From positions 3,647-67,646 of IMG/VR virus record IMGVR_UViG_3300025109_000007: 64,000 nucleotides of DNA, one strand, 5' to 3'. A program made the translations under genes and the position numbers. Every line of letters starts with the position of its first letter. Positions within the stretch are counted from its first letter, which is position 1. The notes beneath the pieces were generated by a model, which saw only the letters and a program-made list of their open reading frames with translations, was not told the origin of the DNA and did not search any database. This document shows, in pieces, positions 7,549-26,500 of this stretch. Source of the DNA: a virus.

Positions 7549-7661
7549 CGGGTCCTGTGGGGGACCCCCCCCGTACCGCGGTTAAGTTTCACCACCGCCG
7601 CCCTCGCACGAAGTCCGATGTTCGGCCCGGTGTTCGGGTGTTCGGGCCCCGATTTGTTCGG
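7549..7661 (+). promoter_or_regulatory. Putative cos/packaging site with downstream TGTTCGG repeats
   Basis: GGGTCCT (identical to lambda cosQ) starts a 47-bp block 39/47 identical to 63954-64000; TGTTCGG at 7619, 7631, 7639, 7655; precedes a TerS-like gene. Confidence 0.65.
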
Positions 7662-7779
7662 GTGAGGCTCCGGGGACTCGTGACCCCACTTTCGCCGCCT
7701 CACGCCCGACCGCCGGCCGACTTGGCGTCCGATTCGTCGCGTTCTGACGACGGTGCCCCGACCTAACCCCGGAGGATTC

Positions 7780-8367
7780 ATGACCACGAAACACCTGATC
7801 TCTCGCGCCGAGTTCGCCCGGCGCGCCAACCGAGGGCGCAGCACGATCACGGAGGCGTGCCGCGGCCCGCTCGCTCGAGCCATCGTCCGGAAGCGCATCG
7901 ATGCCGCGCACCCCGACGTCATCGCGTGGGCGCGTGAGCGCGGGATCGACCCGGACGCCCTCACCAGCCAGCGCCGCGCCGCTCGACCGTCCGGCGCAGG
8001 TTCGAGCCCCGCTCCGGCCGCCACCACGGTTCTGGCCGCCCACGGGTTCGGGGGCCCTCTGACGGCAATCCCGGATGACTTGGTCATCCCCGAGTGGGCG
8101 AGCGGCGCGAGTCCCGCGGTGATCCTCGGAGCGCTACAGGCGGGGCTCGACGCGGAGATCGACCGCGCGAAGGAGCAGGGACAGCGACTCCTGCAGTTAG
8201 AGGCCGACCTCTTCGACCTCGACCACCCCACGGTCCGGCGGTTCCTCGAGCAGGAGCACGACGTCACGATGACGCCCGAGCTACTCGCCGAGCTCTGGGA
8301 AGAGCACGAGGAGCACCGCCAGCGCCGCCGTGAGCTCACCGACACCTCGGGGGCCGAAGCCTCGTGA
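7780..8367 (+). CDS. Terminase small subunit-like protein (N-terminal HTH)
   Basis: GGAGG RBS; LISRAEFARRANRGRSTITEACR...RIDAAHP; first gene after the cos-like site. Confidence 0.55.
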   Translation: MTTKHLISRAEFARRANRGRSTITEACRGPLARAIVRKRIDAAHPDVIAWARERGIDPDALTSQRRAARPSGAGSSPAPAATTVLAAHGFGGPLTAIPDDLVIPEWASGASPAVILGALQAGLDAEIDRAKEQGQRLLQLEADLFDLDHPTVRRFLEQEHDVTMTPELLAELWEEHEEHRQRRRELTDTSGAEAS

Positions 8368-8858
8368 CCGCGGCCGAGCTGGCGGAGGCGTCCGACCACC
8401 TCGACGCGGCGGAGCTGCTCGAGGCCGTGCAGGCGATGCTCCGCCGCCGCCGCGGGGGGCGTGGCGGTCCCATGGAGCGAGTCGTCCTCCTGGCGATGGC
8501 GGCCGCCCTCGAGCAACCCCTCTCGGCCGAGCTCGCGAGGCGGGCGGAAGGGCTGGCGGCGGTGGTCCGGGGCGTTCGGACACGGGCGGGCTACGCAGAC
8601 GCCGCGCCCGCCCTGCGCGAGCTCGCGCGCGTCATCGAGGCCGCTCGCGTGCTGCCGTTGGCTGCGCAGGCGCTGCAGGTGCGGCTTGCGCTGGCCGAGG
8701 TAGGGGCCGAGCTCGAGCTCGACCACATCGAGCAGCTGCTCGACGGCGGCAGGACTCTCCGAGCCCAGGTGGCCACGATCGGCGTGGCCGCGCGGCTGCT
8801 CCCCGGTGGAGACCCGCGGCGAGCTCGTGACCATGTTCGGCGCGCCCTCGGAGCCTGA
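8364..8858 (+). CDS. Hypothetical helical protein
   Basis: GTGA coupling; Ala/Leu/Glu-rich. Confidence 0.55.
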   Translation: MTAAELAEASDHLDAAELLEAVQAMLRRRRGGRGGPMERVVLLAMAAALEQPLSAELARRAEGLAAVVRGVRTRAGYADAAPALRELARVIEAARVLPLAAQALQVRLALAEVGAELELDHIEQLLDGGRTLRAQVATIGVAARLLPGGDPRRARDHVRRALGA

Positions 8859-8947
8859 CGGGTGGAGAGTGAAGCTCCACCTCACGCAACGTTCGGAGCG
8901 TGCATCATGCAGGCATGACGCGCGCTACGCAGATGGAGGGCTGAGCC

Positions 8948-9346
8948 GTGCCCAACATGACGATCACGAACATCGACAACGGCACGGTCCTGATCGGCGA
9001 GGGCGAGTTCAGCGACGAACTGCTCACCTTCGCCGGGGCCGACACCCTCGCGGAGGGCACCATCCTCGCCCGCGACAGCGGGACGGGGAAGCTCGTGCCG
9101 TTCGACCCCGACGACATCGGCGGCGTCGACCACGAGATCGCCAAAGCGGTCCTCACCTACGCCGTCACGGCCACCGGCGCCGGCGACGTGGCCATCCGGG
9201 CTCTCATCCGAGGGCGGGTGAACGCGGGGCGCCTCGTCGTGGACGACGGTGCGAGCGTGACGGCCGCCATCCGAGACCAGCTGCGCGCCTACGGCATCAC
9301 TCCGGTGAGCGTCAGCCAGCTTTCGCAGCTCGACACGCAGGACTGA
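8948..9346 (+). CDS. Head decoration protein (lambda gpD-like)
   Basis: TLAEGTILARDSGTGKLVPFDP...AKAVL...IRGRVNAGRL...LRAYGI pattern; GGAGG RBS. Confidence 0.7.
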   Translation: MPNMTITNIDNGTVLIGEGEFSDELLTFAGADTLAEGTILARDSGTGKLVPFDPDDIGGVDHEIAKAVLTYAVTATGAGDVAIRALIRGRVNAGRLVVDDGASVTAAIRDQLRAYGITPVSVSQLSQLDTQD

Positions 9347-9354: not shown

Positions 9355-9648
9355 ATGAAGCAATCGGTCAACCTCCGCGCCCCGACCTCGCACGCCGCGC
9401 GCAACGCCGGCGACGAGGCCACCCGTGCCCGCCTCGAGCGCGAGGCGGAAGACCTCCGCGCGACGATGACGACGGACTTCGCCGTCGCGCCGCGCGTGAC
9501 GATCACCGCCCCCGACGGGACGGTGCTCGGCCCCGGCGACCCCGTCGACCCCAGCCTGTGGGACGGCGTCGAGGGCGGTGCTGGCTGGCGGCACGTCGAG
9601 AGGTTCGTCCGCGAGGGGCGGGTGCTCGCGCGGGCAGACGGGCGGTGA
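9355..9648 (+). CDS. Hypothetical protein
   Basis: GAGG RBS; in the operon. Confidence 0.55.
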   Translation: MKQSVNLRAPTSHAARNAGDEATRARLEREAEDLRATMTTDFAVAPRVTITAPDGTVLGPGDPVDPSLWDGVEGGAGWRHVERFVREGRVLARADGR

Positions 9649-9894: not shown

Positions 9895-10707
9895 ATGGCC
9901 ATCGACCCGTCCGCCCGCTACGCGGGGCAGCTCGACCTCTCGGACCCCGCGTTCCCCCACGGGAAGCCGCGCAACGTCTCCACCCCCGGAGACGGCACCG
10001 GTACGCCGTTCGAGGCGGGATGGCTCTCGGACTTGTTCGGCTGGCAGCAAGACCTGTTGGACGCCGCGGGGCTGACGCCGTCCGACGTGCCCGATGAGGT
10101 CGGCTCCTCGCAGTACAACGCCGGCATCCGCGCGATCGTTTCCGAGCGCTTCGACGGGGATGGGCGCGTGGAGTTCCCCGCCGCCCTGACTGAGACAGTC
10201 GTCGTGCCCGCCGCGGCGTTCACGGTCAACAACCAGGACCCGACGGAGTTCTCACGGACCACGGGGGCGATCGGCATCGTCGCGAGCGAGCCGGGGATCT
10301 TGCGGACGCTGGGCAGCTCCCCGGACGTCGACGCGTGGCTCGCGCTCAACCGCTACCTGCCCAGCGATGCGGTCCTGACGCGCGTTCGTGCCGCTGCGCT
10401 CTTCGACGACACGGGGATTGGCGCGGCGATTCGGCTCTACCTCGAGACCTACGGGATCGACTGGGCGAACTGGGTTGCCAGCGGAACCAACCACGTCGAC
10501 GCGTCGACGCTCCTGGACGAGAAGACGAAGGCCGCCGCCGACCCGAGCGCCCGCTACATCCTCGACTCCGGGGTGATCTCGTATTCGATGCTCACGAAGG
10601 CGGCGAGCCCCGCATCACGTGCGCTGCGGTTTCAGCTCGTCGGCGAGGGGCAGCACGTCTTCGCCCTCGAGCTCACGTTCACCCACCCTGGGCTCCGGAA
10701 CACCTGA
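9895..10707 (+). CDS. Tail fibre-like protein 1
   Basis: N-terminal ~85 aa paralogous to 18628-19416 (HGKxRNVxTPGDGTGTP...PDEVGxSQY). Confidence 0.65.
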   Translation: MAIDPSARYAGQLDLSDPAFPHGKPRNVSTPGDGTGTPFEAGWLSDLFGWQQDLLDAAGLTPSDVPDEVGSSQYNAGIRAIVSERFDGDGRVEFPAALTETVVVPAAAFTVNNQDPTEFSRTTGAIGIVASEPGILRTLGSSPDVDAWLALNRYLPSDAVLTRVRAAALFDDTGIGAAIRLYLETYGIDWANWVASGTNHVDASTLLDEKTKAAADPSARYILDSGVISYSMLTKAASPASRALRFQLVGEGQHVFALELTFTHPGLRNT

Positions 10708-11363
10708 TGGGCCTCTTCAGCAAGCTCAAGATCAAGCCCCCTGCAGCGTCGCTCGCCGACCTCGAGCACCAGCTCGAGCAGGCCACGGAAGCGCGGGCCG
10801 CCGCGGACGTCCAGGTCAGCGAGGCGGAACGCGAGTTCGACGCGACCGGCGCGGCGGAGGCGCTGTCCGTCCTTCAGGCGGCGAGACTCACGGCCGCGGA
10901 GGCCGCGGAGCACGTCGGCCGCGCCGAACGGCTGCTCTCGGCGGCCCGGGCACGCGAAGAGGATGCGCGGCGCGAGGAGCTCCGCGCGGAGGCGCACCGG
11001 CTCGACGCCGAACTGACTCAGGAGGCGCTCGAGGAGGCTGCGCGGCCCCTGGCGCGGCGTGAAGCCGAGCTCTCCGTGGAGCTCGCCACCGTGCGTCAGG
11101 ACCGGGCGGCCCTCGCCGCGGACGTCGACGCGAAGTGCGAGCGCCGCCGCGCCATCGCCCTCGAGCTCGACGAGGAGGGGGGCCACGGTGGGATCTGGAT
11201 CGACGAAGGCGGGCGAGCGCGGTCCGGCTCACCACACGGGGGCCAGCGCGGAAGCATCGTGCGGAGCGCTGAACGCGTCTGGACCGAGCTGCAGCACCTC
11301 TCGCCGCAGTCGAGTACCGGCCAGCTCGTTCGTAAGATCATCGAGTCCGGCGAGGGACGCTGA
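10707..11363 (+). CDS. Coiled-coil hypothetical protein
   Basis: Long A/E/R/L heptads; TGATG coupling. Confidence 0.6.
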   Translation: MGLFSKLKIKPPAASLADLEHQLEQATEARAAADVQVSEAEREFDATGAAEALSVLQAARLTAAEAAEHVGRAERLLSAARAREEDARREELRAEAHRLDAELTQEALEEAARPLARREAELSVELATVRQDRAALAADVDAKCERRRAIALELDEEGGHGGIWIDEGGRARSGSPHGGQRGSIVRSAERVWTELQHLSPQSSTGQLVRKIIESGEGR

Positions 11364-11695
11364 TGCGACGCCGCCCGGCCAAGAAGCGCGCGCGCCCTGG
11401 CCGCTATGTCTTCGAGGAACGATTCGACGCGCCGGCCGACCTCATCGCCGCGGCGCGCGAGCGCGCGGAGCGGTGGGCGCCCCTGGCGCGCGCGCAGCGC
11501 GTGCGAGGTGACCTCGTGGTCCTCGCTGGCGTGCGAGACGGGAAGGCCATCGTGACGATGGCGCCCCGCGTCGAGGTGGCGGCGTCGACTCCCGATCGGG
11601 ACTTCGAGCGGCAGCTCCGCCAGCCCACGCCAGGTCGGGTGGGCGTCTACGTCGGGGGCGCGCCGTTCTTCTTCGTCGAGGAGTCCTCGACGTGA
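11363..11695 (+). CDS. Hypothetical protein
   Basis: Coupled at both ends. Confidence 0.5.
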   Translation: MRRRPAKKRARPGRYVFEERFDAPADLIAAARERAERWAPLARAQRVRGDLVVLAGVRDGKAIVTMAPRVEVAASTPDRDFERQLRQPTPGRVGVYVGGAPFFFVEESST

Positions 11696-13722
11696 GCACG
11701 CGATTCTCCGTCGAGGCGGCGTTCAAGGTCGTGGACCGGATGACCCGGCCCGTGCGCCGCATGCAGAACACGATCGGTCGCTTCACCCGAGACGTGCGGT
11801 CAGGGTTTCGCGATCTGGGGGCGTGGGGGACCCGTCTGCGGCACGGGATCACGGCCGTGGGGTTTGCGATCGCGGGCGCGATGGCGCTGGCCGCGCAGGA
11901 ACTTCGGAAAGTGATCTCGCTGGGGATGGACTTCGATTCGACGATGGCGAGAGCAGCCGCCAGATTCGGGGTCGCAACAGACTCCGCCGAGGGGCGAGCG
12001 CTGGAAGAGGCGGCGCTCGCCCTCGGTCGCAACACGGAGTTCATGGCCAGCCAGGGGGCGGAGGCGCTGGCGGAGCTCGGCGCCACGGGGCTCACCGCGG
12101 CGCAGTCCATCGCTCAGCTCACCGCGATCGCGAACACCGCGACGTCGGCCGGGATCGAGCTCGGCGAAGCGTCGGAGTGGGTGACCGATCAGATGAGCGC
12201 CTTCGGACTCGTCTCCGACGACCTGGGGGAGGTGACTCGGAACGCGCAGCGAGTCTCCGACGTGATGGCCCTTGGGGCCAACATGGCCGGCCACACGTTC
12301 GGTCAGCTGAACGAGGCCTTGACCAACGTGGCCGCCGGTGCGGCGAGCGCCGGCCTCCCCATCGAGGACGTGACGGCCGCCCTCGCGTCGCTGGCGGGGG
12401 CGGGCGAGAAGGGCGCCCGCGCCGGGACGCGCCTCGACGCGATGCTCCGCGACCTCCGCACGCCCTCAGCCCAGGCGCGACGCGCGCTCCGTGGTCTCGG
12501 CGTCGAGGTTCGGAACGCGGATGGCACCCTTCGCCCCATCACCGACATCGTGCGTCAGTTCGAAGGGGCTCTCGACGGGATGAACGACGGCGCTCGCGAT
12601 CGGGCGCTCAGCCGGATCTTCACCGACCAGGGTCTGCGCCCGATGCAGCTGCTCCTGCAGCAGGGGTCTGAGAAGCTGGACGGATTCCGCAGTCGCCTGG
12701 ACAACGCCAACGGGGCCGCAGAGGCCTTCGCCAACCAGGTTCGCGACAACGCAGCCGGCGATCTCGCCTCGTTCGGGTCCGCTCTCGAGGGGCTCCGGCT
12801 TCAGACCTGGAGTCTGGTACGCGGTCCCTTCCGCGAGATGGTCCAGGCTTCCACGGAGTGGCTCCGAGCGAACCAGGGCGTCATCGCGTCCGGGCTGCGA
12901 GGCTTCGTCGAGTTCCTCACCGCGAACATGCCCACGATCGAAGTCTGGGCTCGCCGCATCGGGATCGCGGTTGCGATCGTGGGCACGCTTCTCCTGCTGA
13001 CGATGGCGGCGTTCGTCGCGGTCATCGTCGCGATCCCGGCTCTGATCGTGGGCGTCGTCAGCCTGCTCGTGGCGGCCTGGGAGTGGGTCGCCGACGCGGC
13101 GAGCTCCGCGGCCGCGTGGATCGGCGAGGCGTTCGGCGGGGTATGGAACGCGGTGCGCGACTTCTTCGGCGCCGCGCTCGAGTTCGTCGTCGGGGTCTTC
13201 GTGCTGCTGCGACGGCAGGCCATGACCCTCCTGCGTCCGGTGATCGACTGGATGGCGAGCGCTGGCGCGTGGATCGCGGAGAGGTGGCGACCGATCGGGG
13301 CGTTCTTCGGTGGCCTCTGGGCGGGGATAGCCTCCGCCTTCTCGGGCGCTTGGGACGGTCTCGTGAAGCAAGCTGTCGCCATCTACAGCCGATTCCTCGC
13401 CATCTGGCGCCCCCTCCGCGGCTTCTTCGCGAGCCTGTGGAGCGGTATCGCACAGCTGTTCCACGGCACCCTCGGCGGAGTGCTCGACCAGGTGGGTCGC
13501 GTTGTCGAGAACGTGCGCGGTGTCGGCCGCGCAGAGCTCGACGGCGACGCGCCGCCGCCTTCGGTCGTCAGCCCGGAGGCTCGGGTGGCTCGATCGATCT
13601 CCGAGAGCACCAGCACCGAGCGGGCGGAGATCACCGTGCGCTCCGGCGACGGCGCGACGGCTGAGGTCACGCGGCGACCGCGCGGCAACACGCTCCTCGT
13701 GCCTGCGTCGGGAGCGACGTGA
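11692..13722 (+). CDS. Phage tail tape measure protein (TP901-type core)
   Basis: GRNTEFMASQGAEAL, GEKGARAGTRL, hydrophobic segment and Trp/Phe-spaced repeats. Confidence 0.92.
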   Translation: MSTRFSVEAAFKVVDRMTRPVRRMQNTIGRFTRDVRSGFRDLGAWGTRLRHGITAVGFAIAGAMALAAQELRKVISLGMDFDSTMARAAARFGVATDSAEGRALEEAALALGRNTEFMASQGAEALAELGATGLTAAQSIAQLTAIANTATSAGIELGEASEWVTDQMSAFGLVSDDLGEVTRNAQRVSDVMALGANMAGHTFGQLNEALTNVAAGAASAGLPIEDVTAALASLAGAGEKGARAGTRLDAMLRDLRTPSAQARRALRGLGVEVRNADGTLRPITDIVRQFEGALDGMNDGARDRALSRIFTDQGLRPMQLLLQQGSEKLDGFRSRLDNANGAAEAFANQVRDNAAGDLASFGSALEGLRLQTWSLVRGPFREMVQASTEWLRANQGVIASGLRGFVEFLTANMPTIEVWARRIGIAVAIVGTLLLLTMAAFVAVIVAIPALIVGVVSLLVAAWEWVADAASSAAAWIGEAFGGVWNAVRDFFGAALEFVVGVFVLLRRQAMTLLRPVIDWMASAGAWIAERWRPIGAFFGGLWAGIASAFSGAWDGLVKQAVAIYSRFLAIWRPLRGFFASLWSGIAQLFHGTLGGVLDQVGRVVENVRGVGRAELDGDAPPPSVVSPEARVARSISESTSTERAEITVRSGDGATAEVTRRPRGNTLLVPASGAT

Positions 13723-15008
13723 GCTGGGAGGACCGAGTCCGGGAGGCGGCCTACACGTCTCCGAGCGGTACGCGTCGCGTCTTCGCCTTCGAGACCGTCT
13801 CGGCCGAGGTCGAGCTCAGGGCGAAGGCGTTCGAGTTCCCCGGCGTCGACGCCACCTACGTGCAGGGAAACGGGCACGGTGGTCGGCGGTTCCCCCTCCG
13901 CTGCTTCTTCTCGGGCGACGACCATGACCTCGAGGCGGAGGCGTTCATCGGAGGGCTGCTCGAGCGCGGGGTCGGGCGCCTCGAGCACCCGTTCTACGGG
14001 ACGCATGACGTCGTGCCGCTCGGCACGATCACCCGTCGCGACGACCTCAAGGACGCGGCCAACCAGACCGTCGTCGAGGTGACGCTGGCCGTCTCCCTGA
14101 CGCGGGTCTACCCGACGCTCCGGCCCAGCCGCTCGGCGGAAGTGTCGGCGTCGCTGCGAGCCCTCGACGAGGCGAGCGCCCTGCAGTTCCAGGACGCGCT
14201 GGACCTGAGCACTGCCGCGGCGCGCGCGAGCGAGGAGAGCGCCGTGCGCGACTCGCTCGCCGCCGCGAGCGCCACGCTCGCCGACATCGCTGCTGGTGTG
14301 GACGCGGTGCGCGACGCGTTCCGAGATGCGCAGGACGCCGTGAACCTCGGTCTCGACGTGCTGATCGGACAGCCGCTGCAGCTCGCGCAGAGCATCGCCA
14401 ACCTCGTCCGCGCGCCAGCTCGATCGGATGTGGCGATCCGCTCACGGCTCGAGGCCTACGGGGACTTCCTCGAGCGAATCGTTACCGCGCCCTCCGCGCG
14501 CCCGGGCGACGCGTTTCTCAGCGGGGTGGTCCTGCCCGGCCGGCGCCGCGTGGTCTCCAACGACTTCCACACCGCCGTGGTCTTCGCCGCGCAGGGAGTC
14601 GCTGGGAGCGTCGAGAGCGTGCTGAACCACCGGTTCCCGGACCGCCCCGCTGCTCTGGCGGCGGCGGAGACGCTCCTCGGGCAGCTCGATCGGGTCGTGC
14701 CGTGGATGGAGGATGGCTTCGGCGATCTCGCCGATGCGGACGCGCCTGCGAGCGTGGACACGGGCGGCACCTACCAGGCGCTGCAGGAGGCGGTCGCCCT
14801 GGCTGCGGGCTTCCTTGTCGAGATCTCCTTCACCTTGCTCCCCCAGCGGCGCGTGGTGCTCGACCGTCCCCGCACGATCATCGACCTCGCCGCCGAATTC
14901 TACGGAGAGGTGGACGGTCGGCTCGACTTCATCCTGCGGACCAACGATCTAAGCGGGTCCGAGATCCTCGAGCTCCCGCGAGGACGGGAGTTCGTCTTCT
15001 ATGCCTGA
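13719..15008 (+). CDS. Mu gpN-like DNA circularisation domain protein
   Basis: MSWEDRVREAAY, FEFPGVD, GRLEHPFYG; follows the tape measure. Confidence 0.85.
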   Translation: MSWEDRVREAAYTSPSGTRRVFAFETVSAEVELRAKAFEFPGVDATYVQGNGHGGRRFPLRCFFSGDDHDLEAEAFIGGLLERGVGRLEHPFYGTHDVVPLGTITRRDDLKDAANQTVVEVTLAVSLTRVYPTLRPSRSAEVSASLRALDEASALQFQDALDLSTAAARASEESAVRDSLAAASATLADIAAGVDAVRDAFRDAQDAVNLGLDVLIGQPLQLAQSIANLVRAPARSDVAIRSRLEAYGDFLERIVTAPSARPGDAFLSGVVLPGRRRVVSNDFHTAVVFAAQGVAGSVESVLNHRFPDRPAALAAAETLLGQLDRVVPWMEDGFGDLADADAPASVDTGGTYQALQEAVALAAGFLVEISFTLLPQRRVVLDRPRTIIDLAAEFYGEVDGRLDFILRTNDLSGSEILELPRGREFVFYA

Positions 15009-16996: not shown

Positions 16997-16998
16997 CC

Positions 16999-18620: not shown

Positions 18621-18627
18621 GAGACCC

Positions 18628-20069: not shown

Positions 20070-20072
20070 GGA

Positions 20073-20837
20073 ATGTTCTTTCGCATCCTACAACACCTCC
20101 TGCCGGATGGCGCGGCGTGGCGCACCACCGTCCAGAAGCAGCTACGGACGCTTCTCGAGGCCCTCGCACAGGAGCCCGAGGCGGCGCGCAGCTTCGTGGA
20201 CAAGGTCTACAGGGACCTGTTCCCGGACAGCACGCGCGAGCTCGCGGCCTGGGAGCGCTTCTTCGTCCTGCCGGGCACTGGGGACGAACCGACCCGCCGG
20301 CAGCGACTCGCCGCAGCCTGGCAGGAGACCGGGGGGCAGGCGCCTCGGTACCTGCAGGACGTCGTCCAGGCCGCCGGCTTCGACCTCTACGTGCACGAGT
20401 GGTGGTCCTCAGGGCCACCGTGGGTCGCGCGCGACCCTCGCGCACACACCGAGGTGCCCCTGATCGGGACCGTGCAGTGCGGTGAGCCCGACGCGCTCTG
20501 CGGTGAAGTCAGCGCGCAGTGCAACGCCTTCCTGGCGAACGAGCCCGGATACTTGGTCAACGTCGACCTCACCCCGACCGCCCCACCGCGCGTTCCGGAC
20601 GACCCCGCCTCCTGGCCGTTCTTCGTCTACTTCGGCGGCGCGACCTTCGGTGATCGCGTCGCGGTCACGGTCGCGCGCCGCCGCGAGCTCGAGGACCTCC
20701 TCCTCAAGCTCTGCCCGGCTCAGCACTGGATCGTGTTGCTCGTCGACTGGGTCGGCGAAGCGACGACCCGCGTGACGCTCGCAGGCGACACGCGCGTGAC
20801 CCTGAGCGGCGACACCCGCTTCACCCTCGGACTCTGA
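20073..20837 (+). CDS. Baseplate wedge partner (YmfQ/Mu gp48-like)
   Basis: LQHLLPDGAAW, ELAAWERFFVL, CPAQ; C-terminal TRVTLxGD repeats. Confidence 0.8.
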   Translation: MFFRILQHLLPDGAAWRTTVQKQLRTLLEALAQEPEAARSFVDKVYRDLFPDSTRELAAWERFFVLPGTGDEPTRRQRLAAAWQETGGQAPRYLQDVVQAAGFDLYVHEWWSSGPPWVARDPRAHTEVPLIGTVQCGEPDALCGEVSAQCNAFLANEPGYLVNVDLTPTAPPRVPDDPASWPFFVYFGGATFGDRVAVTVARRRELEDLLLKLCPAQHWIVLLVDWVGEATTRVTLAGDTRVTLSGDTRFTLGL

Positions 20838-20843: not shown

Positions 20844-22073
20844 ATGCCGACAACGATCAAGGACCTTCCGAACGAGCTCACGGCGGAGGCGATGGACCCC
20901 TCCGCCGATTGGATCGAGGTCGAGGACATCGACGCCAACGAGACGAAGAAGGCGCACCCGGACCAGTTCGTCCAGGGAGCCGGCGCGTTGGTCGACGCAG
21001 ACTTCGCGGGCATGTTCGCGGGCGCGCTGCACCGAGTTGGGCCCGGCGCGTACCGGGCTGTGCGGCACAACCTCTCGGCGACGTCGGTCCCGTCTGTGAA
21101 CGACGACGACACCCTCGGGTATGCGGTCGGGAGCGCCTGGGTGAACGTCCTCACCGACCGCGTGTGGATCCTCGTCGACGCGTCGACGGGCGCGGCGGTG
21201 TGGCTTGAGCTGCGTGGCGGCGACGTGGTGGGCCCTGCGAGCGCCGTCGACGGTGAACTCCCGGTGTTCGACGGGGTCACCGGCCAGCTTCTCAAGGCCG
21301 GCGCGGCAGCCGAGGCGCTCCTCCGGATCGCCGGCCGCGACACGCTTCGGCTCCGTGACTCCCCGGTCGCCAGCCTCCAAGCGCTCTCGCCGGCGTTCCT
21401 CGACCTCGACCTGGACACGAGCGGGGTCACCGGGGCGGCCGAGTGGTACGGCATCCGGCTCGACGCCTCGAACGACGTGCCGGGCGCCTTCCTGCTCTTC
21501 CGCGTCGGTGGGACCCGCGTCGGCGCCGTCGAGGTGCCCAGCGCGGCGCTCGGCGCCATCTTCCGCGGCGGGGACGGCGACGACACGAACCCGACCTTCG
21601 GCTTCGAGTCGGACCTGGACCTCGGCTTCTTCTTCGCGTCGGCCGGCGTGGTCGGACTCAACGGCGCGCTCGAGCCGAACGTCGATGGGAACGGCTCGCT
21701 GGGGACTGCGACGAGGGCCTTCGGCAACGTCTATGCCGACCAGATCAACGGCCGTCCCGTCGCGGCACCGACCCAGGTCGAGACCCTCGCTGGCACCACC
21801 GACACGCTGGCGGAGGCGGACAACGGCAAGGTGGTGCGCTGCACGAACGCCGGCACGGTCACCGTCACGGTCCCCACCGGCCTCACGCCCGGCACGACCG
21901 TGGAGTACGTGCAGGAGGGCGCGGGGCAAGTGCAGGTCGCGGCGGGCGCCGGGATGGCCCTGCGCCACGGTGCCACCTGGAACCCGTACACCGCCGAGCA
22001 GTACAGCTCGGTGGTCGTCACCATCCTCGACACGGACGAGGCCCTCGTCCGCGGCGACCTCGAGGCAGCCTGA
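20844..22073 (+). CDS. Tail fibre/spike protein
   Basis: PSVNDDDTLGYAVGSAWVN, GDVVGPASAVDG, beta-rich C-terminal domain. Confidence 0.75.
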   Translation: MPTTIKDLPNELTAEAMDPSADWIEVEDIDANETKKAHPDQFVQGAGALVDADFAGMFAGALHRVGPGAYRAVRHNLSATSVPSVNDDDTLGYAVGSAWVNVLTDRVWILVDASTGAAVWLELRGGDVVGPASAVDGELPVFDGVTGQLLKAGAAAEALLRIAGRDTLRLRDSPVASLQALSPAFLDLDLDTSGVTGAAEWYGIRLDASNDVPGAFLLFRVGGTRVGAVEVPSAALGAIFRGGDGDDTNPTFGFESDLDLGFFFASAGVVGLNGALEPNVDGNGSLGTATRAFGNVYADQINGRPVAAPTQVETLAGTTDTLAEADNGKVVRCTNAGTVTVTVPTGLTPGTTVEYVQEGAGQVQVAAGAGMALRHGATWNPYTAEQYSSVVVTILDTDEALVRGDLEAA

Positions 22074-22837
22074 TGCCGGCGACAGCCAGAGCGGGGGCGA
22101 CGGCGATGCAGGGCGCGCGGCGGACCCGCGTCTCGAGCTTCGACCCGCTCGGCGCGCAGCTCTACCTCTGGGCGCCGGAGGCCTCGACGGTCGAGCTCGA
22201 CGGCTCGAGCGAGGTCACGGAGTGGCGGAACCTCGGGACGGCGGGCTCCGCCCTCGACGCCTTGCGGGTGAGCGGCGCGGTCACCTACGTGCCCGGCTCG
22301 CACCTCGTCGTCCCGACGGGCAGCGAGTTTCTCAGCCGGCTGGCGGCGACGGCGCTCGACGTCGCGGACGACGGCGCCCTCGACGTGGTCGGCGTGTTCA
22401 GCTCGAGCGCGCCGAACGCCCAGCGCTTCCTCGTCGGAGGCCAGGGGCAGACGCACTTCACGCTGATCCCTCGCTGGTCGGGGCTCAGCGTCTTCCGGGT
22501 GCTCGACGGGGTGACGACGCTGCAGGCGGTCGGCGCGAGCCTCACGAACGACGGCACGATCTACTGCCAACGCGGGCGCTTCACGGGTGCAGCGGCACCG
22601 AGCAACGACTCGAGCAGCCTGAAGACCAACGACGTGGCGGGGTCGACGGCGACCGCGAACCTCGGGGCGGTCAGCTTCGGGGCCGACAAGCTCGCGTTCT
22701 TCTCTGTCGGTGGCTCCGAGTTCATCGGCAACTGCTACGCGCTCATCGCGAAGGTCGGCGGCTTCTCGGCCGGCGAGCTCACCGAGCTCACCACGCGGAT
22801 CAACGCGGCCTTCGGGACCGCACTGGCGGGCGTGTGA
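22073..22837 (+). CDS. Putative receptor-binding / beta-sandwich tail protein
   Basis: FDPLGAQLYLW...VTEWRNL N-terminus; beta-rich; coupled. Confidence 0.55.
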   Translation: MPATARAGATAMQGARRTRVSSFDPLGAQLYLWAPEASTVELDGSSEVTEWRNLGTAGSALDALRVSGAVTYVPGSHLVVPTGSEFLSRLAATALDVADDGALDVVGVFSSSAPNAQRFLVGGQGQTHFTLIPRWSGLSVFRVLDGVTTLQAVGASLTNDGTIYCQRGRFTGAAAPSNDSSSLKTNDVAGSTATANLGAVSFGADKLAFFSVGGSEFIGNCYALIAKVGGFSAGELTELTTRINAAFGTALAGV

Positions 22838-23352
22838 TGGCCGCCGTCACGGACAGCTTCGACCCGGAGGACTACGGCCGGCTCCTGGTCGAGTCGACAC
22901 GGCTTCACCAGGAGTGCCGCGAGGGGCAGCAGCGCGCGGAGGACAAGATCGACGCGCTCACCGCGGCTCAGCGCGAAACGAAGAAGGAGCTCGACGAGAT
23001 GCGCGAGTCGCTGAAGGAGCGCGCGGGCGAGCGAAAGAGCAACGCGCGCTGGTGGGCGGCCGCGTTCGCCATCCTCGGCGGCGTCTCTGCGTACCTCTTC
23101 CCGTCGATGCTCGACGCGCGGTCACGGATCGATCGCGCCGAGGTGGAGCTTGCGGCCACTCGGTCAGCAGCCGCCCGCCATGAGCGCGAGCTCCAGGAGC
23201 ACGAGGACAGCCCAGGGCACGCCGGCAACAGAACGGACATCGGAGCGATCCGCGGCGACATTCGCGAGCTCGGCGCCACGGTCCGCTCCCTCACCGAAGC
23301 CGTGCGCGAGACCCAAGAGGACGTGCGCGAGATCCGACGGAGGGTCCGGTGA
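22837..23352 (+). CDS. Coiled-coil single-TM protein, possible holin/lysis accessory
   Basis: WWAAAFAILGGVSAYLF between two coiled coils; lies after the tail genes. Confidence 0.5.
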   Translation: MAAVTDSFDPEDYGRLLVESTRLHQECREGQQRAEDKIDALTAAQRETKKELDEMRESLKERAGERKSNARWWAAAFAILGGVSAYLFPSMLDARSRIDRAEVELAATRSAAARHERELQEHEDSPGHAGNRTDIGAIRGDIRELGATVRSLTEAVRETQEDVREIRRRVR

Positions 23353-23669
23353 GGCCCCACCTGGTCCGCGCGGTCGAACGCGTCGCCGCCCACCTCCCGC
23401 GCGACGACGAGGAGGTCATGCGCTCGTGGCGCCTGATCGCGGCGGCGCTCCGGCGCGGCGAGCGCGCGAGCTCGCAGACGCTCCCGCGCATCGCCGGACT
23501 CGCTCAGCACGCGGTGCTCGCGCGCGAGCTCCTCGACCAGCTCGTCCCGGCGCTCCCGCCGACCCTCTACGCGGCCGCGGCGGACGCCCGGACGCACATC
23601 GTCGCGATCCTCAGCGCGCTGTCGCCGGGGAGCGACTCGGAGCCGCCCGAGCGCGGCATGGAGACCTGA
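23349..23669 (+). CDS. Hypothetical protein
   Basis: GTGA coupling. Confidence 0.5.
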   Translation: MRPHLVRAVERVAAHLPRDDEEVMRSWRLIAAALRRGERASSQTLPRIAGLAQHAVLARELLDQLVPALPPTLYAAAADARTHIVAILSALSPGSDSEPPERGMET

Positions 23670-23670
23670 T

Positions 23671-24498
23671 ATGACGAAGATCCTCGAACCCTGGCGGTGG
23701 CCGATCGCCGTCGTCCTGAGCGTCGCGCTCGCGTCGCTCGCCGCCCTGTTCCTCCTCGGACCGCAGCTCGGCGTCGACCCGGAGACCCTCGGCGACGTGA
23801 AGCGCTGGCTCGCCGGCGGAGCGGCCGCGCTCGGCGCGCTGCTCCTCCCCGCGCTGAAGGCCTGGCTCACGGCCGACTCCGACGGCGACGGCAAGCCCGA
23901 CTGGATGGACAAGACGCCCACCGGCCCGCGGGACACCCTCGTCGCGCTCCTCGTCGCTGGCGGGGTGGTGCTCGGCGCCGGGACTCTGCAGGGCTGCGGC
24001 GCCGGAGCTCTCGGCGTGCAGGCGGACATGGTGGCGGTCGGTGGCATCCTGGCGGCGGAAGCCGACGCGGCCCTCGTCCGAGCTCGCGCGGCCGACCTCG
24101 AGGAGGTCGTCACCGATGCGCGCGCGGAGTGTGGCTCCGGCGACTGCGACGAAGAGCGGCGCGATCACTGGCGCGGCGAGCTCGCGGCGCGCGAGCGGAG
24201 GTGGGCGCCGGCGATGGCCTGCCGCGAGCAGGTGCCCGAGGTGCTGCGCGGATGGGGCGAGGCGCTCGACACCGCCCGCGTGGCGCAGACGAGCAGCGTC
24301 GGCCTCGAGCTGCTCGCGCGGCACGGGGGGCGCTTCGTCCTCGCCTACGACGCCTTCCGGGGCTGCGTCGAGACGGCCGCCCCCGAGCGCGTCGATCTAC
24401 CCGACCCACCGCCGGAGCTGCTCGTCTACGCGGAGGCCTTCACCCAGCGCTCGCCCGCGGCGTCAGCCACGGCCGGCGGAGAGGCAGGTGCGCGATGA
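23671..24498 (+). CDS. Membrane protein of the lysis region
   Basis: 2-3 hydrophobic segments, DSDGDGKPD motif, internal LQGC lipobox-like motif. Confidence 0.6.
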   Translation: MTKILEPWRWPIAVVLSVALASLAALFLLGPQLGVDPETLGDVKRWLAGGAAALGALLLPALKAWLTADSDGDGKPDWMDKTPTGPRDTLVALLVAGGVVLGAGTLQGCGAGALGVQADMVAVGGILAAEADAALVRARAADLEEVVTDARAECGSGDCDEERRDHWRGELAARERRWAPAMACREQVPEVLRGWGEALDTARVAQTSSVGLELLARHGGRFVLAYDAFRGCVETAAPERVDLPDPPPELLVYAEAFTQRSPAASATAGGEAGAR

Positions 24499-24920
24499 CG
24501 CCAGTGATGACCCCGGAGCAGGTCGCGCTCGAGCTGCTCAAGGTCGCGATCGCCGCCGGCGGCGGGATCGTCGAGCTCGTCACCGAGCAGGAGCGGAAGT
24601 CGCTCGAGGAGCGGATCGAGCGCGCGCTCGCCGCGGTGAAGGACCCGATCGACACCACCGAGGAGGACGCCAGCCGGCGCGCGCGCCTCGAGGCCGTGCT
24701 CCGAGGCGAGGGCGATGACGTCAGCGTGGTCGTCAACGGCCGGCCCACCCGGCTCCCGGCGCGGGCGGCATACGAGCAGCTCGTGGCGGCGGCCGGGATG
24801 TCGGGTCAGCCGACGGTCGTCGTCCGCGGCGCGGGCGCCGGGCGGACCGTCACGCCCGGCCAAGTCGTCGACCTCGCGGCCGGCGCGACCGTCAACGTCG
24901 CCCACACGAGCAACGCGTGA
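24495..24920 (+). CDS. Protein with C-terminal ubiquitin-like (beta-grasp) domain
   Basis: VSVVVNGRP...AYEQLVAAAG...TVTPGQVVDLAAGATVNVAHT. Confidence 0.55.
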   Translation: MTPVMTPEQVALELLKVAIAAGGGIVELVTEQERKSLEERIERALAAVKDPIDTTEEDASRRARLEAVLRGEGDDVSVVVNGRPTRLPARAAYEQLVAAAGMSGQPTVVVRGAGAGRTVTPGQVVDLAAGATVNVAHTSNA

Positions 24921-25114
24921 TGGAGGCCCCCACGCCGTGCGACTGCGGCGAGCTCGTTGAGCTCGACGAGATGGTGCCCGACCCGGGCAACCCGCGCCGC
25001 CTCGTCTGCCGCGAGTGCGCCGACAACTTCGACGGCGAGCCTCTCGTCGAGGCGGAGCGCCCCCTCACGCCGGAGGAGGAGGAGTTCTACGCCGGTTGCG
25101 TGAGGGTTCTGTGA
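24917..25114 (+). CDS. Small zinc-finger protein
   Basis: CDCG...CRECA. Confidence 0.55.
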   Translation: MMEAPTPCDCGELVELDEMVPDPGNPRRLVCRECADNFDGEPLVEAERPLTPEEEEFYAGCVRVL

Positions 25115-25292
25115 AGGCGCTCCGCGCAGGGCAGGGCGAGCACGGAGAACCCCGCCGCCGGCCGATCTGGGTCTCAGGTCCGGCCGAGCCGGCGGGGCAC
25201 CCCCCGCGGCCGCGTGAGCACCTCGGTGGACGTCTGGGCACCCTCGGAGACCTCCTCTGGCTCCGGGCCGAGCAGACGTCAGCGAGGCGCCC

Positions 25293-25604
25293 GTGACGGC
25301 CCTCGTCTCGATTCCGCGCGCGGCGTCGCTCGAGGAGGCGGTGGACCGCGGCCCGCGCTGGCGGCCGATCGCGGACCTGGGCGAGGGGCCCCACGCCTAC
25401 GGCGACGGCCGCCCGATGCGCGTCGTGGTCTCCTGCCCCTCGGGGCAGCTGCTCGGGCTCCCGCACGACGTCGGAGACGACGGCCGCGTCAGCCCGTCGA
25501 TCGTCTGTCGGTGCGGGTGCGGCTGGCACGTCTTCGGCCGGCTCGAGGACTGGGCCTCCGCCCCGCGCGCACCGGAGCGCCTCGAGAGTGGGGATGCTCG
25601 ATGA
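25293..25604 (+). CDS. Small Cys/His protein, DUF6527-like
   Basis: SCPSG...VSPSIVCRCGCGWHVF...W. Confidence 0.5.
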   Translation: MTALVSIPRAASLEEAVDRGPRWRPIADLGEGPHAYGDGRPMRVVVSCPSGQLLGLPHDVGDDGRVSPSIVCRCGCGWHVFGRLEDWASAPRAPERLESGDAR

Positions 25605-26500
25605 GCGTGACTCGAGAGGCCGTGATCGACGCCGTCGCGCACGAGGTCCTCGAGCGCGGGGCCAAGGCGGCCGAGGTCCCCTTCGAGTTCGCCACCGCGG
25701 TGGCCGACCGCCTCGAGCTCGTGGCGGCCGCGCGCGCGCCAGCTCCCGCGGCGGCGCACGTCGCGCCCGAGCGCGGGCTCGTGATAGGCGGGGAGGTGAT
25801 CCCCGGCACCGACTGGGTTCGCCGCGATCCGCGCTACTGGTGGACCAGCGGCCGCGGGACACGCCCCCGCGCGCGCGTCGTCGATCTCCTCGTGGGTCAC
25901 TGGACCGCCGGAGAGGCGGGGACCCGCGACCCGGATGGGGCCGCACCGCTCACCGAGTACGACGACGACGGGCCCCGGGTGGTCCGGGTCATGCGCTCGA
26001 GGAAGCGCAACGGACGGCCGCTCAACGTCGGGATTCACTTCGTCATCGGCGCATGCGACCCGTCGGAGAGCTACGCCCCGATCTGGCAGACCGCGGACCC
26101 GGGCGAGGTGGCGACGGTCCACCTCGGGACCGGCGCCCTCAACGCGCGCTCGATCGGCGTCGAGGTGGTCTCGGCGGGCCTGCCGGGGCCGCTCGACCAT
26201 CGCTCTCGCCCGCGAGTGCGCATCCCCCTGCTCGGGCGGCAGCAAGAGGTGCTCGCGTTCTTCCCCGGGCAGCTGCGGACCTGGGTGGCTCTCGCGGAGG
26301 CCGTCGCTCGGCTTGAGGGCCGCGCGGGGGTCCACGTGCCGCGCCGTGTGCCCTCCTTCGGCGCCGAGCGCCGCTTCAGCGCCGCGGAGGCGCGAGGCTA
26401 CGCGGGAGCGATGGAGCACCTCCACTCGCCGCGAACGCGCAAGATCGACGCCGGTGGACTACTCGTCGCGGCGCTGCGTGACGCGGGGTGGGCAGCGTAG
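25601..26500 (+). CDS. Endolysin, N-acetylmuramoyl-L-alanine amidase (Amidase_2-like)
   Basis: VGHWTAG, GIHFVIG, NARSIGVEV, EH...RKIDAG. Confidence 0.85.
   Translation: MSVTREAVIDAVAHEVLERGAKAAEVPFEFATAVADRLELVAAARAPAPAAAHVAPERGLVIGGEVIPGTDWVRRDPRYWWTSGRGTRPRARVVDLLVGHWTAGEAGTRDPDGAAPLTEYDDDGPRVVRVMRSRKRNGRPLNVGIHFVIGACDPSESYAPIWQTADPGEVATVHLGTGALNARSIGVEVVSAGLPGPLDHRSRPRVRIPLLGRQQEVLAFFPGQLRTWVALAEAVARLEGRAGVHVPRRVPSFGAERRFSAAEARGYAGAMEHLHSPRTRKIDAGGLLVAALRDAGWAA

What the first reader, a model, noticed from the sequence alone, without database searches (positions are those of the whole stretch)
7549..26500. Headless phage-like element: own tape measure, baseplate, fibres and lysis, but no TerL, portal, capsid, sheath or tube
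Seen: between the cos-like site and the tape measure there are only ~4 kb of small, tightly packed ORFs (TerS-like, gpD-like decoration, HTH, fibre paralogue, coiled coil). None is large enough or motif-bearing enough to be TerL, portal, major capsid or sheath. The tail-tip block downstream is intact. Known: a Mu-like contractile baseplate needs sheath and tube; P4 and PICIs borrow helper structural proteins, and cf-PICIs make capsids and borrow tails. Inference: this may be the converse, a satellite that borrows head, sheath and tube from a helper (plausibly B) but sets its own tail length and host range. Intact frames and substitute genes argue against simple decay, but a deletion remnant is not excluded.
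Basis: partly seen in the sequence, partly recalled or inferred. Interest (0 to 1): 0.85.

Follow-up and report, generated by a model that had tools for sequence, protein, structure and literature searches.

The report
Headless satellite–phage hybrid in Myxococcota
This stretch really does carry a phage tape measure, baseplate and fibre genes with no head, sheath or tube genes. It looks like a small helper-dependent element joined, inside the tape-measure gene, to the far tail half of an ordinary temperate phage.

Summary
Between a conserved 71-nt cos-like site (7549-7619) and the tape measure (11692) lie only small ORFs. No TerL, portal, capsid, sheath or tube gene was found in the 67.6-kb record.

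A Myxococcota MAG (G001, contig C57) holds a complete relative. Its baseplate proteins are 81-96% identical and it has every missing gene. The left part (integrase, replication genes, cos-like site, o8364, coiled-coil gene) instead matches a ~13-kb element on another contig of that MAG (C283, 73-93% aa). That element has no structural genes. Likeness to C57 resumes inside the tape-measure gene, at about 12742.

So the 'headless phage' is a natural joint between a satellite-like element and the distal tail and lysis half of a lambda-head/Mu-tail phage. Independent contigs carry the same order at about 98% identity, so it is not an assembly chimera. Element-specific genes are under purifying selection. 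Distant small elements repeat the gene set without heads.

The baseplate block is not shown to be the satellite's 'own'. What lies left of the record is unknown. Precedents include helper-embedded and elongated PICIs, and tape-measure-bearing EPIPs.

The parts
1..76 (-). 5' end of the element's tyrosine integrase gene. The gene runs from contig base 2025 to 3722, mostly left of the window.
   Evidence: PF00589 1.7e-22 on L004:2025-3722. 36% aa identity to the C283 integrase.
1658..2194 (-). cI-like HTH_3 repressor
   Evidence: PF01381 4.6e-7 (given as L004:5304-5840).
2275..7350 (+). Early and replication module: small ORFs, an HTH_36 initiator-like protein (about 3500-4537), a DnaB helicase (about 4531-5868), a DnaB_C-like protein (5861-6697) and o6694 (6694-7350).
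   Evidence: Pfam. 88% nt identity over 5.15 kb to G001:C283 37709-42825. dN/dS 0.14-0.29 for the five ORFs from the HTH_36 protein to o6694.
7549..7619 (+). Conserved 71-nt cos-like (or late-control) site
   Evidence: 86% identical to the site 50 nt upstream of TerS in the complete phage C57, and in L020 and L021. Present in C283. Its first 47 nt are the last bases of the record, in phage B.
7780..8367 (+). TerS-like protein: an N-terminal HTH like that of phage small terminases, with an unrelated C-terminal half.
   Evidence: Residues 6-69 are 41% identical to C57 TerS. Spp_04 residues 2-62 match at 43%. No Pfam or PHROG hit.
8364..8858 (+). o8364, a helical protein specific to the small-element family
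   Evidence: 73% aa identity to C283 c164, dN/dS 0.23. No family or fold lead.
8948..9346 (+). Lambda gpD-like head decoration protein, an island of phage-type DNA (8903-9358)
   Evidence: PF02924 and phrog_49. 92% aa and 87.6% nt identity to C57. Homology stops at the gene borders.
9355..9648 (+). o9355, a small alpha/beta protein that travels with the coiled-coil gene in distant elements
   Evidence: 40 representatives at E<=1e-3. Homologues sit next to cc in G524 and G649. Model pLDDT 84.5, no fold match.
9895..10707 (+). Paralogue of the short baseplate-attached fibre protein
   Evidence: 40.7% identical over 216 aa to the ORF at 18574-19416. The N-terminus matches the fibre N-terminus of SppYZU01 and tail-fibre PHROGs. 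12 of 15 listed variant substitutions fall on third codon positions.
10707..11363 (+). cc, the coiled-coil protein that marks the family
   Evidence: 81% aa identity to C283, dN/dS 0.24. 4 clusters among 5.8 billion proteins. HMM hits in 6 of 401 genomes of the order. Three long helices, pLDDT 80.8.
11363..11695 (+). o11363, a small ORF overlapping the tape-measure start, in the position of a chaperone
   Evidence: 3 clusters at 78-99% identity. No PDB, Pfam or PHROG hit.
11692..13722 (+). Tape measure protein, a mosaic. The N-terminal ~350 aa are about 43% identical to C57 (a figure I derived, no call output). From about 12742 on it is 84% aa and 86% nt identical.
   Evidence: PF10145 4e-37. 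blastn breakpoint at 12742. 676 vs 678 aa. Its last 308 nt are repeated at 93.6% at the start of the record, 17,024 nt upstream.
13719..20837 (+). Mu-like baseplate: gp43 DNA-circulation (13719-15008), gp44 hub (15001-16044), gp45 (16035-16559), gp46 (about 17005-17427), gp47/J (17412-18620), short fibre protein (18574-19416), gp48 (19590-20837).
   Evidence: Pfam. Full-length matches at 81-96% aa to C57, except the gp46 ORF (residues 6-295 at 76%). dN/dS 0.05-0.12, gp48 value unusable.
20844..24498 (+). Distal tail-region ORFs (20844-22073, about 22070-23352, 23349-23669, 23671-24498). A fibre role is not shown.
   Evidence: No Pfam hit. 91%, 75% and 90% aa identity to C57 for the first three.
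25214..26500 (+). Possible amidase endolysin (weak)
   Evidence: Amidase_2 4.9e-5, 24.1 bits, under the cut-off of 26. No tblastn hit in 50,697 phage records. Not homologous to C57 here.
27817..31591 (+). Post-late cargo shared with C57, partly: 27817-28027 and the MBL-fold gene at 30399-31591. An HATPase_c protein lies at 28328-29281.
   Evidence: blastn to C57 64156-64365 (91%) and 65526-66709 (83%). Pfam.
34047..64000 (.). Phage B. Its integrase and early region are collinear with the complete phage C57. It ends at the cos-like site, which is the end of the record. It is a candidate helper, but its late genes cannot be seen.
   Evidence: 75-95% nt identity to C57 12900-36422. Pfam.

Best explanation
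The region is a natural joint between two different mobile elements.

The left part runs from the integrase just left of the window through 7549 to about 12742. It is a small satellite-like integrative element. It has its own integrase, repressor and DnaB-type replication module. After a cos-like site it shares with complete phages, it has a short operon. That operon holds family-specific genes (o8364, o9355, coiled-coil cc) and spare copies of helper-type parts: a TerS DNA-binding domain, gpD, a fibre paralogue and a tape measure.

The right part runs from about 12742 to 26500 and on to about 31.6 kb. It is the distal half of the late region of a temperate lambda-head/Mu-tail myophage of the type seen complete in G001:C57.

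The two are joined by a crossover inside the homologous tape-measure genes. Two routes fit: insertion of a 17.0-kb circular element into a phage's tape-measure gene, or a deletion between a satellite and a phage lying in tandem.

Shown: the gene content, the two ancestries, the breakpoint, the persistence of the arrangement, and purifying selection.

Inferred: the element cannot form particles alone. It would be packaged from its cos-like site by the GpA-type terminase, into heads and onto sheath and tube, of a C57-type phage. That phage could be B next door, or the phage it may be embedded in.
For: 1. Two ancestries.
- Early region, o8364 and cc match G001:C283 at 73-93% aa; the early region is 88% nt identical over 5.15 kb.
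- gpD and everything from 12742 on match G001:C57 at 86-88% nt.
- C57's early region is unrelated to A's.

2. C57 is complete: GpA terminase 2e-43, lambda portal 1e-58, capsid E 2e-24, sheath 5e-81, tube 1.5e-41.

3. C283 is about 13 kb, lies between host genes (SufB, MshEN), and matches no tape-measure, baseplate or SppYZU01 late protein.

4. Shared cis site. The 71-nt motif lies upstream of TerS in C57, L020 and L021. It also lies in A, in C283 and at B's end, with unrelated sequence around it. A diverged copy sits in G649.

5. Repeat geometry. Record bases 1-308 equal the tape-measure 3' end at 93.6%, 17,024 nt upstream. They are followed by a gp44 remnant and then the right end typical of C283 (85% nt), which abuts A's integrase.

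6. Common breakpoint. A/C283 homology stops at 11382. Contigs of runs X13 and X18 leave the window's sequence at 11375 and 11370 and run on unlike it.

7. Not an assembly artefact. X3 record 20 covers 8699-11124 with 0 differences. X7 record 23 covers 6752-11885 with 85 substitutions and 13 gaps.

8. Selection.
- dN/dS is 0.23 for o8364 and 0.24 for cc.
- 24 of 33 listed variant substitutions inside ORFs are third-position, p=4e-6. Only 40 of 173 differences were listed.
- Indels are in frame (+9 nt at 8020) or intergenic.

9. Recurrence. The cc HMM hit 6 of 401 genomes of the order.
- G524:C32 has integrase, D5-type primase-helicase, cc, o9355-like, TerS-like, a 300-aa ORF and a tape measure within 11.7 kb, next to a host ABC1 kinase.
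- G665:C111 has integrase, TerS, cc-like and a tape measure.
- Neither matches SppYZU01's TerL, portal, MCP, sheath or tube.
Against: - No function was tested. Excision, replication, packaging and helper dependence are all inferences.
- The motif could be a late promoter rather than cos.
- No att repeats were found.
- What lies left of the record's first base is unknown. Embedded-in-a-phage and fused-by-deletion cannot be told apart, and a sibling remnant is possible.
- The neighbouring remnant A0 shows that tail genes are being deleted here, as plain decay would predict.
- The family is rare: cc was found in 1 of 401 genomes sampled from the phylum and 6 of 401 from the order, and in no IMG/VR contig.
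- The TerS-like protein lacks the C-terminal part that is like the phage TerS.
- Folds of cc and o9355 gave no functional lead.
- Homologues of o11363 (78%) and cc (63%) were each seen on a longest contig of 86,055 nt. If that is one contig, the cc-o11363 junction may be older than I assume.
Confidence: 0.55

Rival explanations
1. Ordinary decaying prophage. A complete phage lost TerL-to-protease and MCP-to-chaperone by deletion or replacement. The small relatives (A0, C283 and others) are later stages of the same decay. Nothing here is mobile or helper-dependent.
For: - A0 shows two clear deletions of tail genes.
- The retained genes are near-identical to those of a complete phage.
- No att sites were found.
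- The family is rare.
- Low dN/dS of the baseplate genes could date from before the loss.
Against: - o8364 and cc sit where the head and sheath genes would be. They are absent from the complete phage C57 and are kept under dN/dS of about 0.23 over dS 0.5-0.8 in two head-less elements.
- The same gene set recurs without heads in G524 and G665, with other integrases and another replicase.
- All frames are intact, and indels are in frame or intergenic.
- The cos-like site is conserved in elements with unrelated flanks.
Confidence: 0.25
2. One reading: a stable 'tail-tip-forming' satellite that keeps its own tape measure, baseplate, fibres and lysis as selected equipment. It borrows only head, sheath and tube, so that it sets its own host range.
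For: - All baseplate frames are intact.
- The cc-o11363-tape measure junction is present in two laid runs of two studies, X3 and X7. X3 is identical to the window and may be the same campaign.
- There is an extra fibre paralogue under purifying selection.
- The lysis region differs from C57's.
Against: - C283 lacks the block, and contigs of two close variants (X13, X18) leave the window's sequence just after cc.
- A0 has lost it.
- The block is collinear with, and 86-88% nt identical to, a complete phage as far as shared cargo genes, as expected for a recent recombination.
- The tape measure is of equal length to the phage's.
Confidence: 0.12
3. Assembly chimera between co-occurring phages at 7.4-11.7 kb.
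For: - The source is a metagenome.
- Several related elements share repeats.
- The record ends inside repeats, the tape-measure 3' end and the motif.
Against: Independent contigs from other runs bridge every junction. X3 record 20 covers 8699-11124 and record 21 covers 11307-12322. X7 record 23 covers 6752-11885 at about 98% identity. X18 record 9 covers 6752-10924.
Confidence: 0.03

Closest known systems
Helper-embedded PICIs and 'elongated' PICIs with captured late-gene clusters (Tommasini, Mageeney & Williams 2023, PMC10111431; abstract and passages read)
   Same: [quoted passage not shown] The paper proposes that PICIs capture clusters of helper late genes in their late zone. Composites of helper and satellite exist.
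   Different: - Here the junctions lie in two homologous tape-measure copies, and the element's own c116-integrase (attP-type) junction is intact. The join therefore looks like homologous recombination, not integrase-mediated insertion.
- The host is Myxococcota, not Enterobacteriaceae.
- 'Tape measure' occurs 0 times in that paper's main text.
- Embedding is unproven here because the left flank is missing.
EPIPs of Mycolicibacterium (Qian et al. 2025 preprint, PMC12822802; abstract and introduction read)
   Same: Small satellites that lack capsid and tail genes but carry a tape measure protein. The authors suggest it re-tools the helper's tails.
   Different: No sequence comparison was made. 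EPIPs were isolated as particles from an actinobacterial host. In the abstract they have no baseplate block and no holin, and nothing is said about a shared cos site.
Satellite P4 with helper P2 (recalled, no call)
   Same: An integrase-plus-replicon element with a cos site like its helper's, helical hijack proteins, and total dependence on helper head and tail genes.
   Different: - P4 carries no tape measure, gpD or fibre copies.
- The Atlas lead from cc to P4 Psu (score 0.88) was not borne out by the fold search.
- There is no sequence relation.
Capsid-forming PICIs (bioRxiv 10.1101/2022.09.08.507074; search listing and start of abstract only)
   Same: Satellites that make one half of the virion and steal the other half.
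   Different: cf-PICIs make capsids and steal tails. Here no capsid genes are present, and the tail-tip block is probably phage-derived rather than the satellite's own.
Complete phages of the SppYZU01 / G001:C57 type
   Same: gpD, tape measure, gp43-gp48 baseplate and fibre N-terminal domain are orthologous: 51-61% aa to SppYZU01 for gpD, gp43 and J (34-46% for the tape measure, gp44-46 and gp48), and 81-96% to C57 for gpD and the baseplate genes, with the gp46 ORF at 76% and the tape measure at 62%.
   Different: 16 of 26 late proteins are missing, and the early region is unrelated.

Membership tests
Phage satellite (P4/PICI-like in the broad sense) | Own integrase and own replication module | tested here: met
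   PF00589 integrase. HTH_36 initiator-like protein, DnaB and DnaB_C.
Phage satellite (P4/PICI-like in the broad sense) | Lacks the genes needed to build a virion | tested here: met
   No TerL, portal, protease, MCP, connectors, sheath or tube. C283 matches no tape-measure, baseplate or SppYZU01 late protein.
Phage satellite (P4/PICI-like in the broad sense) | Carries the packaging signal used by the helper's terminase | tested here: inconclusive
   A 71-nt motif is shared with the site upstream of TerS in complete GpA-terminase phages. Whether it is cos or a promoter was not tested.
Phage satellite (P4/PICI-like in the broad sense) | Small unit size compared with the helper | tested here: met
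   The repeat offset gives a unit of 17,024 nt. C283 is about 13 kb. The C57 prophage is about 54 kb.
Phage satellite (P4/PICI-like in the broad sense) | Helper-dependent induction, packaging and transfer | not testable with these tools
   Needs induction and virion DNA sequencing.
Helper-embedded PICI | [quoted passage not shown] | tested here: inconclusive
   Co-oriented tape-measure halves flank the unit. The helper's proximal half would lie left of the record's first base.
Helper-embedded PICI | Integrase-mediated insertion, with attL and attR in the split late gene | tested here: not met
   The c116-to-integrase junction is contiguous as in a circular form, whereas in C283 these are the two ends. 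The junctions with phage DNA are two full or partial homologous tape-measure copies.
Contractile-tail phage or R-type tailocin | Sheath and tube genes next to the baseplate | tested here: not met
   phrog_165 and phrog_4699 gave 0 hits in the record (the tube search had no ringing control). tblastn with Spp_16 and Spp_17 found nothing. The same models hit C57 at 5e-81 and 1.5e-41.
Complete temperate phage of the C57 type | GpA terminase, lambda-type portal, gpC protease and gpE capsid between cos and gpD/tail | tested here: not met
   Only gpD is present.
EPIP-type satellite | Tape measure present while capsid and other tail genes are absent | tested here: inconclusive
   This holds for the inferred 17-kb unit and for G524:C32 and G665:C111. 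It does not hold for the region as found, which has a baseplate. No sequence comparison with EPIPs was made.

The most novel reading that the evidence does not exclude
Marine Myxococcota carry a satellite family that re-tools its helper's tail rather than only its head. The family carries its own tape measure, a fibre paralogue, a gpD copy and a TerS DNA-binding domain behind a shared cos site. It can lodge by homologous recombination inside the helper's tape-measure gene. The result would be a two-cos cointegrate. In it the helper's head-sheath-tube half and its baseplate-fibre-lysis half are separated by the satellite, and the distal tail genes come under the satellite's late control.
Probability: 0.2. 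Interest if true: 0.8.

Novelty: new variant of a known kind. Interest (0 to 1): 0.6.

Why it matters
If the reading holds, it extends satellite biology to Myxococcota and to lambda-head/Mu-tail myophages. It adds a second, independent case of satellites that carry a tape measure. It also shows a route other than site-specific integration by which a satellite and its helper become one composite and exchange late genes: recombination in a shared structural gene.

There is a practical lesson too. CheckV rated this record 96% complete although it has no head, sheath or tube gene. Such hybrids will therefore be miscounted as complete viruses.

Tried and rejected
- Psu lead. The Atlas put cc nearest to P4 Psu among named clusters (0.88). 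The AlphaFold model (pLDDT 80.8) gave only generic coiled-coil hits in the PDB, none at E<=1e-3 and no Psu. Dropped.
- o9355 fold. The model is good (pLDDT 84.5). Foldseek on the PDB gave no hit at E<=1e-3. BFVD's best hit was 2.3e-3 to an unnamed protein. VIA-wide's best was Z 3.6, with lambda gpFI C-domain at Z 2.5, too weak to use.
- o8364. The Atlas gave nothing useful.
- PDB sequence searches for TerS-like, the fibre paralogue and o11363 found nothing at E<0.4.
- att sites. Exact repeats of 13 nt or more between the left flank and 25.8-43.8 kb were only chance-level. No tRNA and no Rfam family was found.
- IMG/VR scans.
  - The tape-measure N-half gave one distant locus, L005 (25-29% identity, GC 47%).
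  - The fibre paralogue, o6694, o8364 and P0004 gave none.
  - The A0 junction 28-mer gave none.
- DNA search of 101 relatives of G001. 71 had some match at E<=0.001. Only G001 had long ones (E 1e-53 to 1e-186). I treat the rest as chance: short GC-rich stretches, nearly all of 25-140 nt (one of 234 nt).
- gp48 dN/dS of 1.9 is a misalignment artefact and is not used.
- The first tblastx was too noisy to use.
- Depth. In X13 and X18 depth over 11361-12800 is low or nil. I use this only here, as absence of cover. The evidence I do use is that their contigs run on unlike the window.
- The amidase ORF has no tblastn hit in the phage collection.
- Supplements of PMC10111431 (site lists) were closed. 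They may bear on whether tape-measure sites are known.

Full report
**What the record is.** The window is bases 3647-67646 of a single 67,646-bp IMG/VR virus record. The record is classed as linear, and CheckV estimates it 96% complete. GC is about 71%, so I called genes by third-position GC and frame plots.

**The observation.** From left to right the element has:
- a tyrosine integrase, mostly left of the window (contig 2025-3722, PF00589 1.7e-22);
- an HTH_3 repressor (1658-2194);
- a replication module: an HTH_36 protein, DnaB and DnaB_C;
- o6694;
- a 430-nt gap without a called gene;
- overlapping small ORFs: TerS-like (7780-8367), o8364, gpD-like (PF02924 2.4e-13), o9355, a fibre paralogue (9895-10707), a coiled-coil protein cc (10707-11363) and o11363;
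- the tape measure (11692-13722, PF10145 4e-37);
- Mu-type gp43, gp44, gp45, gp46, gp47/J and gp48;
- several unknown ORFs and a weak Amidase_2 ORF (24.1 bits, under the cut-off of 26).

The J protein is 60.7% identical to that of Shewanella phage SppYZU01. That is a complete 43.6-kb phage ordered TerS, TerL, portal, protease, gpD, MCP, connectors, sheath, tube, chaperone, tape measure, baseplate. Of its 26 late proteins, 10 find a match in the record and 16 do not. The 16 include TerL, portal, protease, MCP, sheath, tube and chaperone. Six-frame searches of the record for PF05876, PF05136, PF03864, phrog_165 and phrog_4699 gave 0 hits.

**A complete close relative.** A scan of genome contigs with the tape measure found one locus, in a Myxococcota MAG (G001 contig C57).
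- It holds the full module: GpA-type terminase, lambda-family portal, capsid E, sheath (phrog_165 5e-81) and tube (phrog_4699 1.5e-41).
- The window's gp43, gp44, gp45, J, short fibre, gp48 and o20844 are 81-96% identical to it, and gpD is 92% identical. The tape measure is only 62% identical.
- At DNA level the likeness covers 8903-9358, which is gpD alone with breaks at the gene borders. It resumes at 12742 inside the tape-measure gene and runs to about 24.0 kb, then continues in two cargo stretches to 31591.
- C57's early region is unrelated to this element's.

**A second, small relative.** A DNA search of 101 relatives of G001 found long matches only in G001, on a different contig, C283. 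That element lies between host genes (SufB and a MopE-repeat protein on one side, MshEN on the other). It has an integrase (36% identical) and the same early and replication genes (77-93% aa, 88% nt over 5.15 kb). It has the same non-coding stretch, an o8364 homologue (73%) and cc (81%). It ends with a small ORF pair, ORF132 and c116. It matches no tape measure, baseplate or SppYZU01 late protein, and it is about 13 kb long.

The region under study therefore has two ancestries: a C283-type backbone and a C57-type distal tail.

**The shared site.**
- It is 86% identical to the sequence 50 nt upstream of TerS in C57, and to the same place in two further complete-type contigs (L020, L021).
- It is also present in C283.
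- Its first 47 nt are the very last bases of the record, at the end of phage B's early region.
- B (34-64 kb) is collinear with C57's integrase and early region at 75-95% nt. B is therefore of the complete type, but its late genes lie beyond the record.

The terminase family is lambda's GpA and the site lies directly before TerS, so I read the site as cos. That step is inferred; a late promoter would fit the position as well.

**The left end.**
- Record bases 1-308 are 93.6% identical to the tape-measure 3' end, 17,024 nt downstream.
- Bases 371-459 match the last codons of gp44.
- Bases 487-1344 match C283's right end (ORF132 and c116, 85% nt), which runs straight into this element's integrase.
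- In C283 the integrase and c116 are the two ends of the integrated element. Their contiguity here is an attP-type junction.

The simplest single event that gives this picture is a crossover, within the homologous tape-measure genes, between a circular 17.0-kb element and a C57-type phage. That element would carry integrase, early genes, cos, TerS-like, o8364, gpD, o9355, the fibre paralogue, cc, o11363, a tape measure, a gp44 remnant, ORF132 and c116. A deletion between a satellite and a phage lying in tandem gives the same right-hand joint. I cannot choose between the two, because the record starts inside the left tape-measure copy.

**Is it real and maintained?** Twenty runs from 13 studies hold the stretch 6600-12800 or part of it. 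I laid four runs from four studies.
- X3 has contigs identical to the window across 8699-11124 and 11307-12322.
- X7 has one contig across 6752-11885 with 85 substitutions and 13 gaps.
- X18 has one contig across 6752-10924. It then has 358 replaced letters inside cc and leaves the window's sequence at 11370.
- X13 contigs tile most of 6752-11375, with a gap in the listed pieces at 9383-9560, and leave at 11375.

An assembly chimera is thus excluded. Close variants also exist in which cc is followed by something other than o11363 and the tape measure. The break falls at the same place as the end of A/C283 homology (11382).

Indels in the variants are in frame (+9 nt at 8020), compensated (+1/-1 at 7280/7290) or intergenic (9350, 9892). 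Of the 33 listed substitutions that fall in ORFs, 24 are at third positions (p=4e-6). In the fibre paralogue the count is 12 of 15. Only 40 of 173 differences were listed.

Between A and C283, dN/dS is 0.23 for o8364 and 0.24 for cc at dS 0.5-0.8. That is like the replication genes at 0.14-0.29. Baseplate genes against C57 give 0.05-0.12, but this may reflect time spent in complete phages.

**A wider family.**
- cc has only four clusters among 5.8 billion proteins (100, 89, 66 and 63% identity). Its N-terminal 80 residues are almost invariant.
- Its HMM hits 6 of 401 genomes sampled from the order. The single protein hit 1 of 401 sampled from the phylum.
- G524:C32 has a host ABC1 kinase, then integrase, a D5/DUF5906 primase-helicase, cc, o9355-like, TerS-like, a 300-aa ORF and a tape measure (PF10145 6e-46) within 11.7 kb.
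- G665:C111 has integrase, TerS, cc-like and a tape measure (3.8e-35).
- G524:C45 has a DnaB_C-like ATPase, cc, o9355-like and TerS.
- G058:C350 has cc, a gpC-like protease and TerS.
- G649:C132 has cc, o9355-like and a diverged copy of the motif.
- In these loci tblastn found none of SppYZU01's TerL, portal, MCP, sheath or tube; the only head-gene match was the gpC-like protease in G058:C350.

The recurrence of TerS-like, cc, o9355 and often a tape measure, with different integrases and replicases and no head genes, is what I weigh most against plain decay.

**What the unknown genes are.**
- cc models as three long helices (pLDDT 80.8). It gives only generic coiled-coil hits, and the Atlas lead to P4 Psu was not confirmed.
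- o9355 belongs to a family of about 100-aa proteins (40 representatives at E<=1e-3). It models well (pLDDT 84.5) but has no convincing fold match.
- The TerS-like protein shares only the N-terminal HTH with phage TerS, at 41% over 64 residues.
- The fibre paralogue is 40.7% identical over 216 residues to the short fibre protein at 18574-19416.

**Comparison with what is known.**
- Helper-embedded PICIs sit inside late genes of lambdoid helper prophages. Some 'elongated' PICIs have captured helper late-gene clusters (PMC10111431; abstract and passages). This is the closest described configuration. There, however, insertion is integrase-mediated and the split gene is not restored.
- EPIPs are satellites with a tape measure and no capsid or tail genes (PMC12822802; abstract and introduction).
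- P4 shares its helper's cos (recalled, no call).
- cf-PICIs are the converse case (start of abstract in the search listing).
- Searches of the paper library for 'phage satellite' with 'tape measure', and with 'tail', 'helper phage' and 'baseplate', listed no satellite with a baseplate block. I saw only listings for most of those papers.

**Verdict.** There is a satellite-like element here, and it needs a helper for head, sheath and tube. But the baseplate, fibre and lysis block is best read as a phage's distal late region joined on by recombination in the tape-measure gene. It is not the satellite's own long-held equipment.

Noticed in passing
window 63954-64000 (end of record): The record ends 47 nt into the conserved cos-like motif of phage B. 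The break could be a physical cos end or an assembly break at a repeat.
   Followed up: partly
L004 (record bases 1-1400, left of the window): A remnant I call A0. It has a tape-measure 3' end, about 30 codons of the gp44 3' end, a SHOCT-like 132-aa ORF and an HTH ORF (c116). c116 is 90% identical to the last gene of the C283 element.
   Followed up: yes
window 3835-3985: Direct and inverted repeats of about 50-80 nt (85-91% identity), apparently upstream of the HTH_36 domain in the initiator-like gene. They look like iterons of an origin.
   Followed up: no
window 44084-46231, 56428-58290, 58478-59521: Phage B's early region encodes three DNA methyltransferases: C5 (PF00145), MT-A70 and N6_N4. 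It also encodes DUF5131, DUF968, DUF3560 and DUF2303 proteins.
   Followed up: no
window 59756-59956: A cluster of short inverted and direct repeats (81-87% identity) in phage B.
   Followed up: no
window 31600-34050: A low-GC stretch (62.6%) with two ORFs of unknown function (32097-32879, 32821-34005). It lies between the shared MBL gene and B's integrase and is absent from C57. It may be cargo next to an att site.
   Followed up: partly
L003 15736-16673 (G001:C57 53812-54750): The complete phage has about 940 nt between gp46 and J that the window lacks.
   Followed up: no
window 10924-11334: In run X18 a contig replaces these 409 nt, the variable C-terminal third of cc, with 358 other letters. 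The cc homologues at 63-66% identity have a 17-residue (14+3) deletion there.
   Followed up: partly
L036 (G058:C350 699-3594): A cc homologue lies directly beside a full-length gpC-like head protease (46% to SppYZU01) and a TerS. That is an odd order and may be another helper-part capture.
   Followed up: no
whole record: CheckV's estimate for this record is 96% complete, although it has no terminase, portal, capsid, sheath or tube gene.
   Followed up: yes
window 34047-35594 and 42482-43750: There are two tyrosine integrase genes within the B region. Both stretches are also syntenic in C57, so the complete-type phage carries two, or a small nested element is conserved in both.
   Followed up: no
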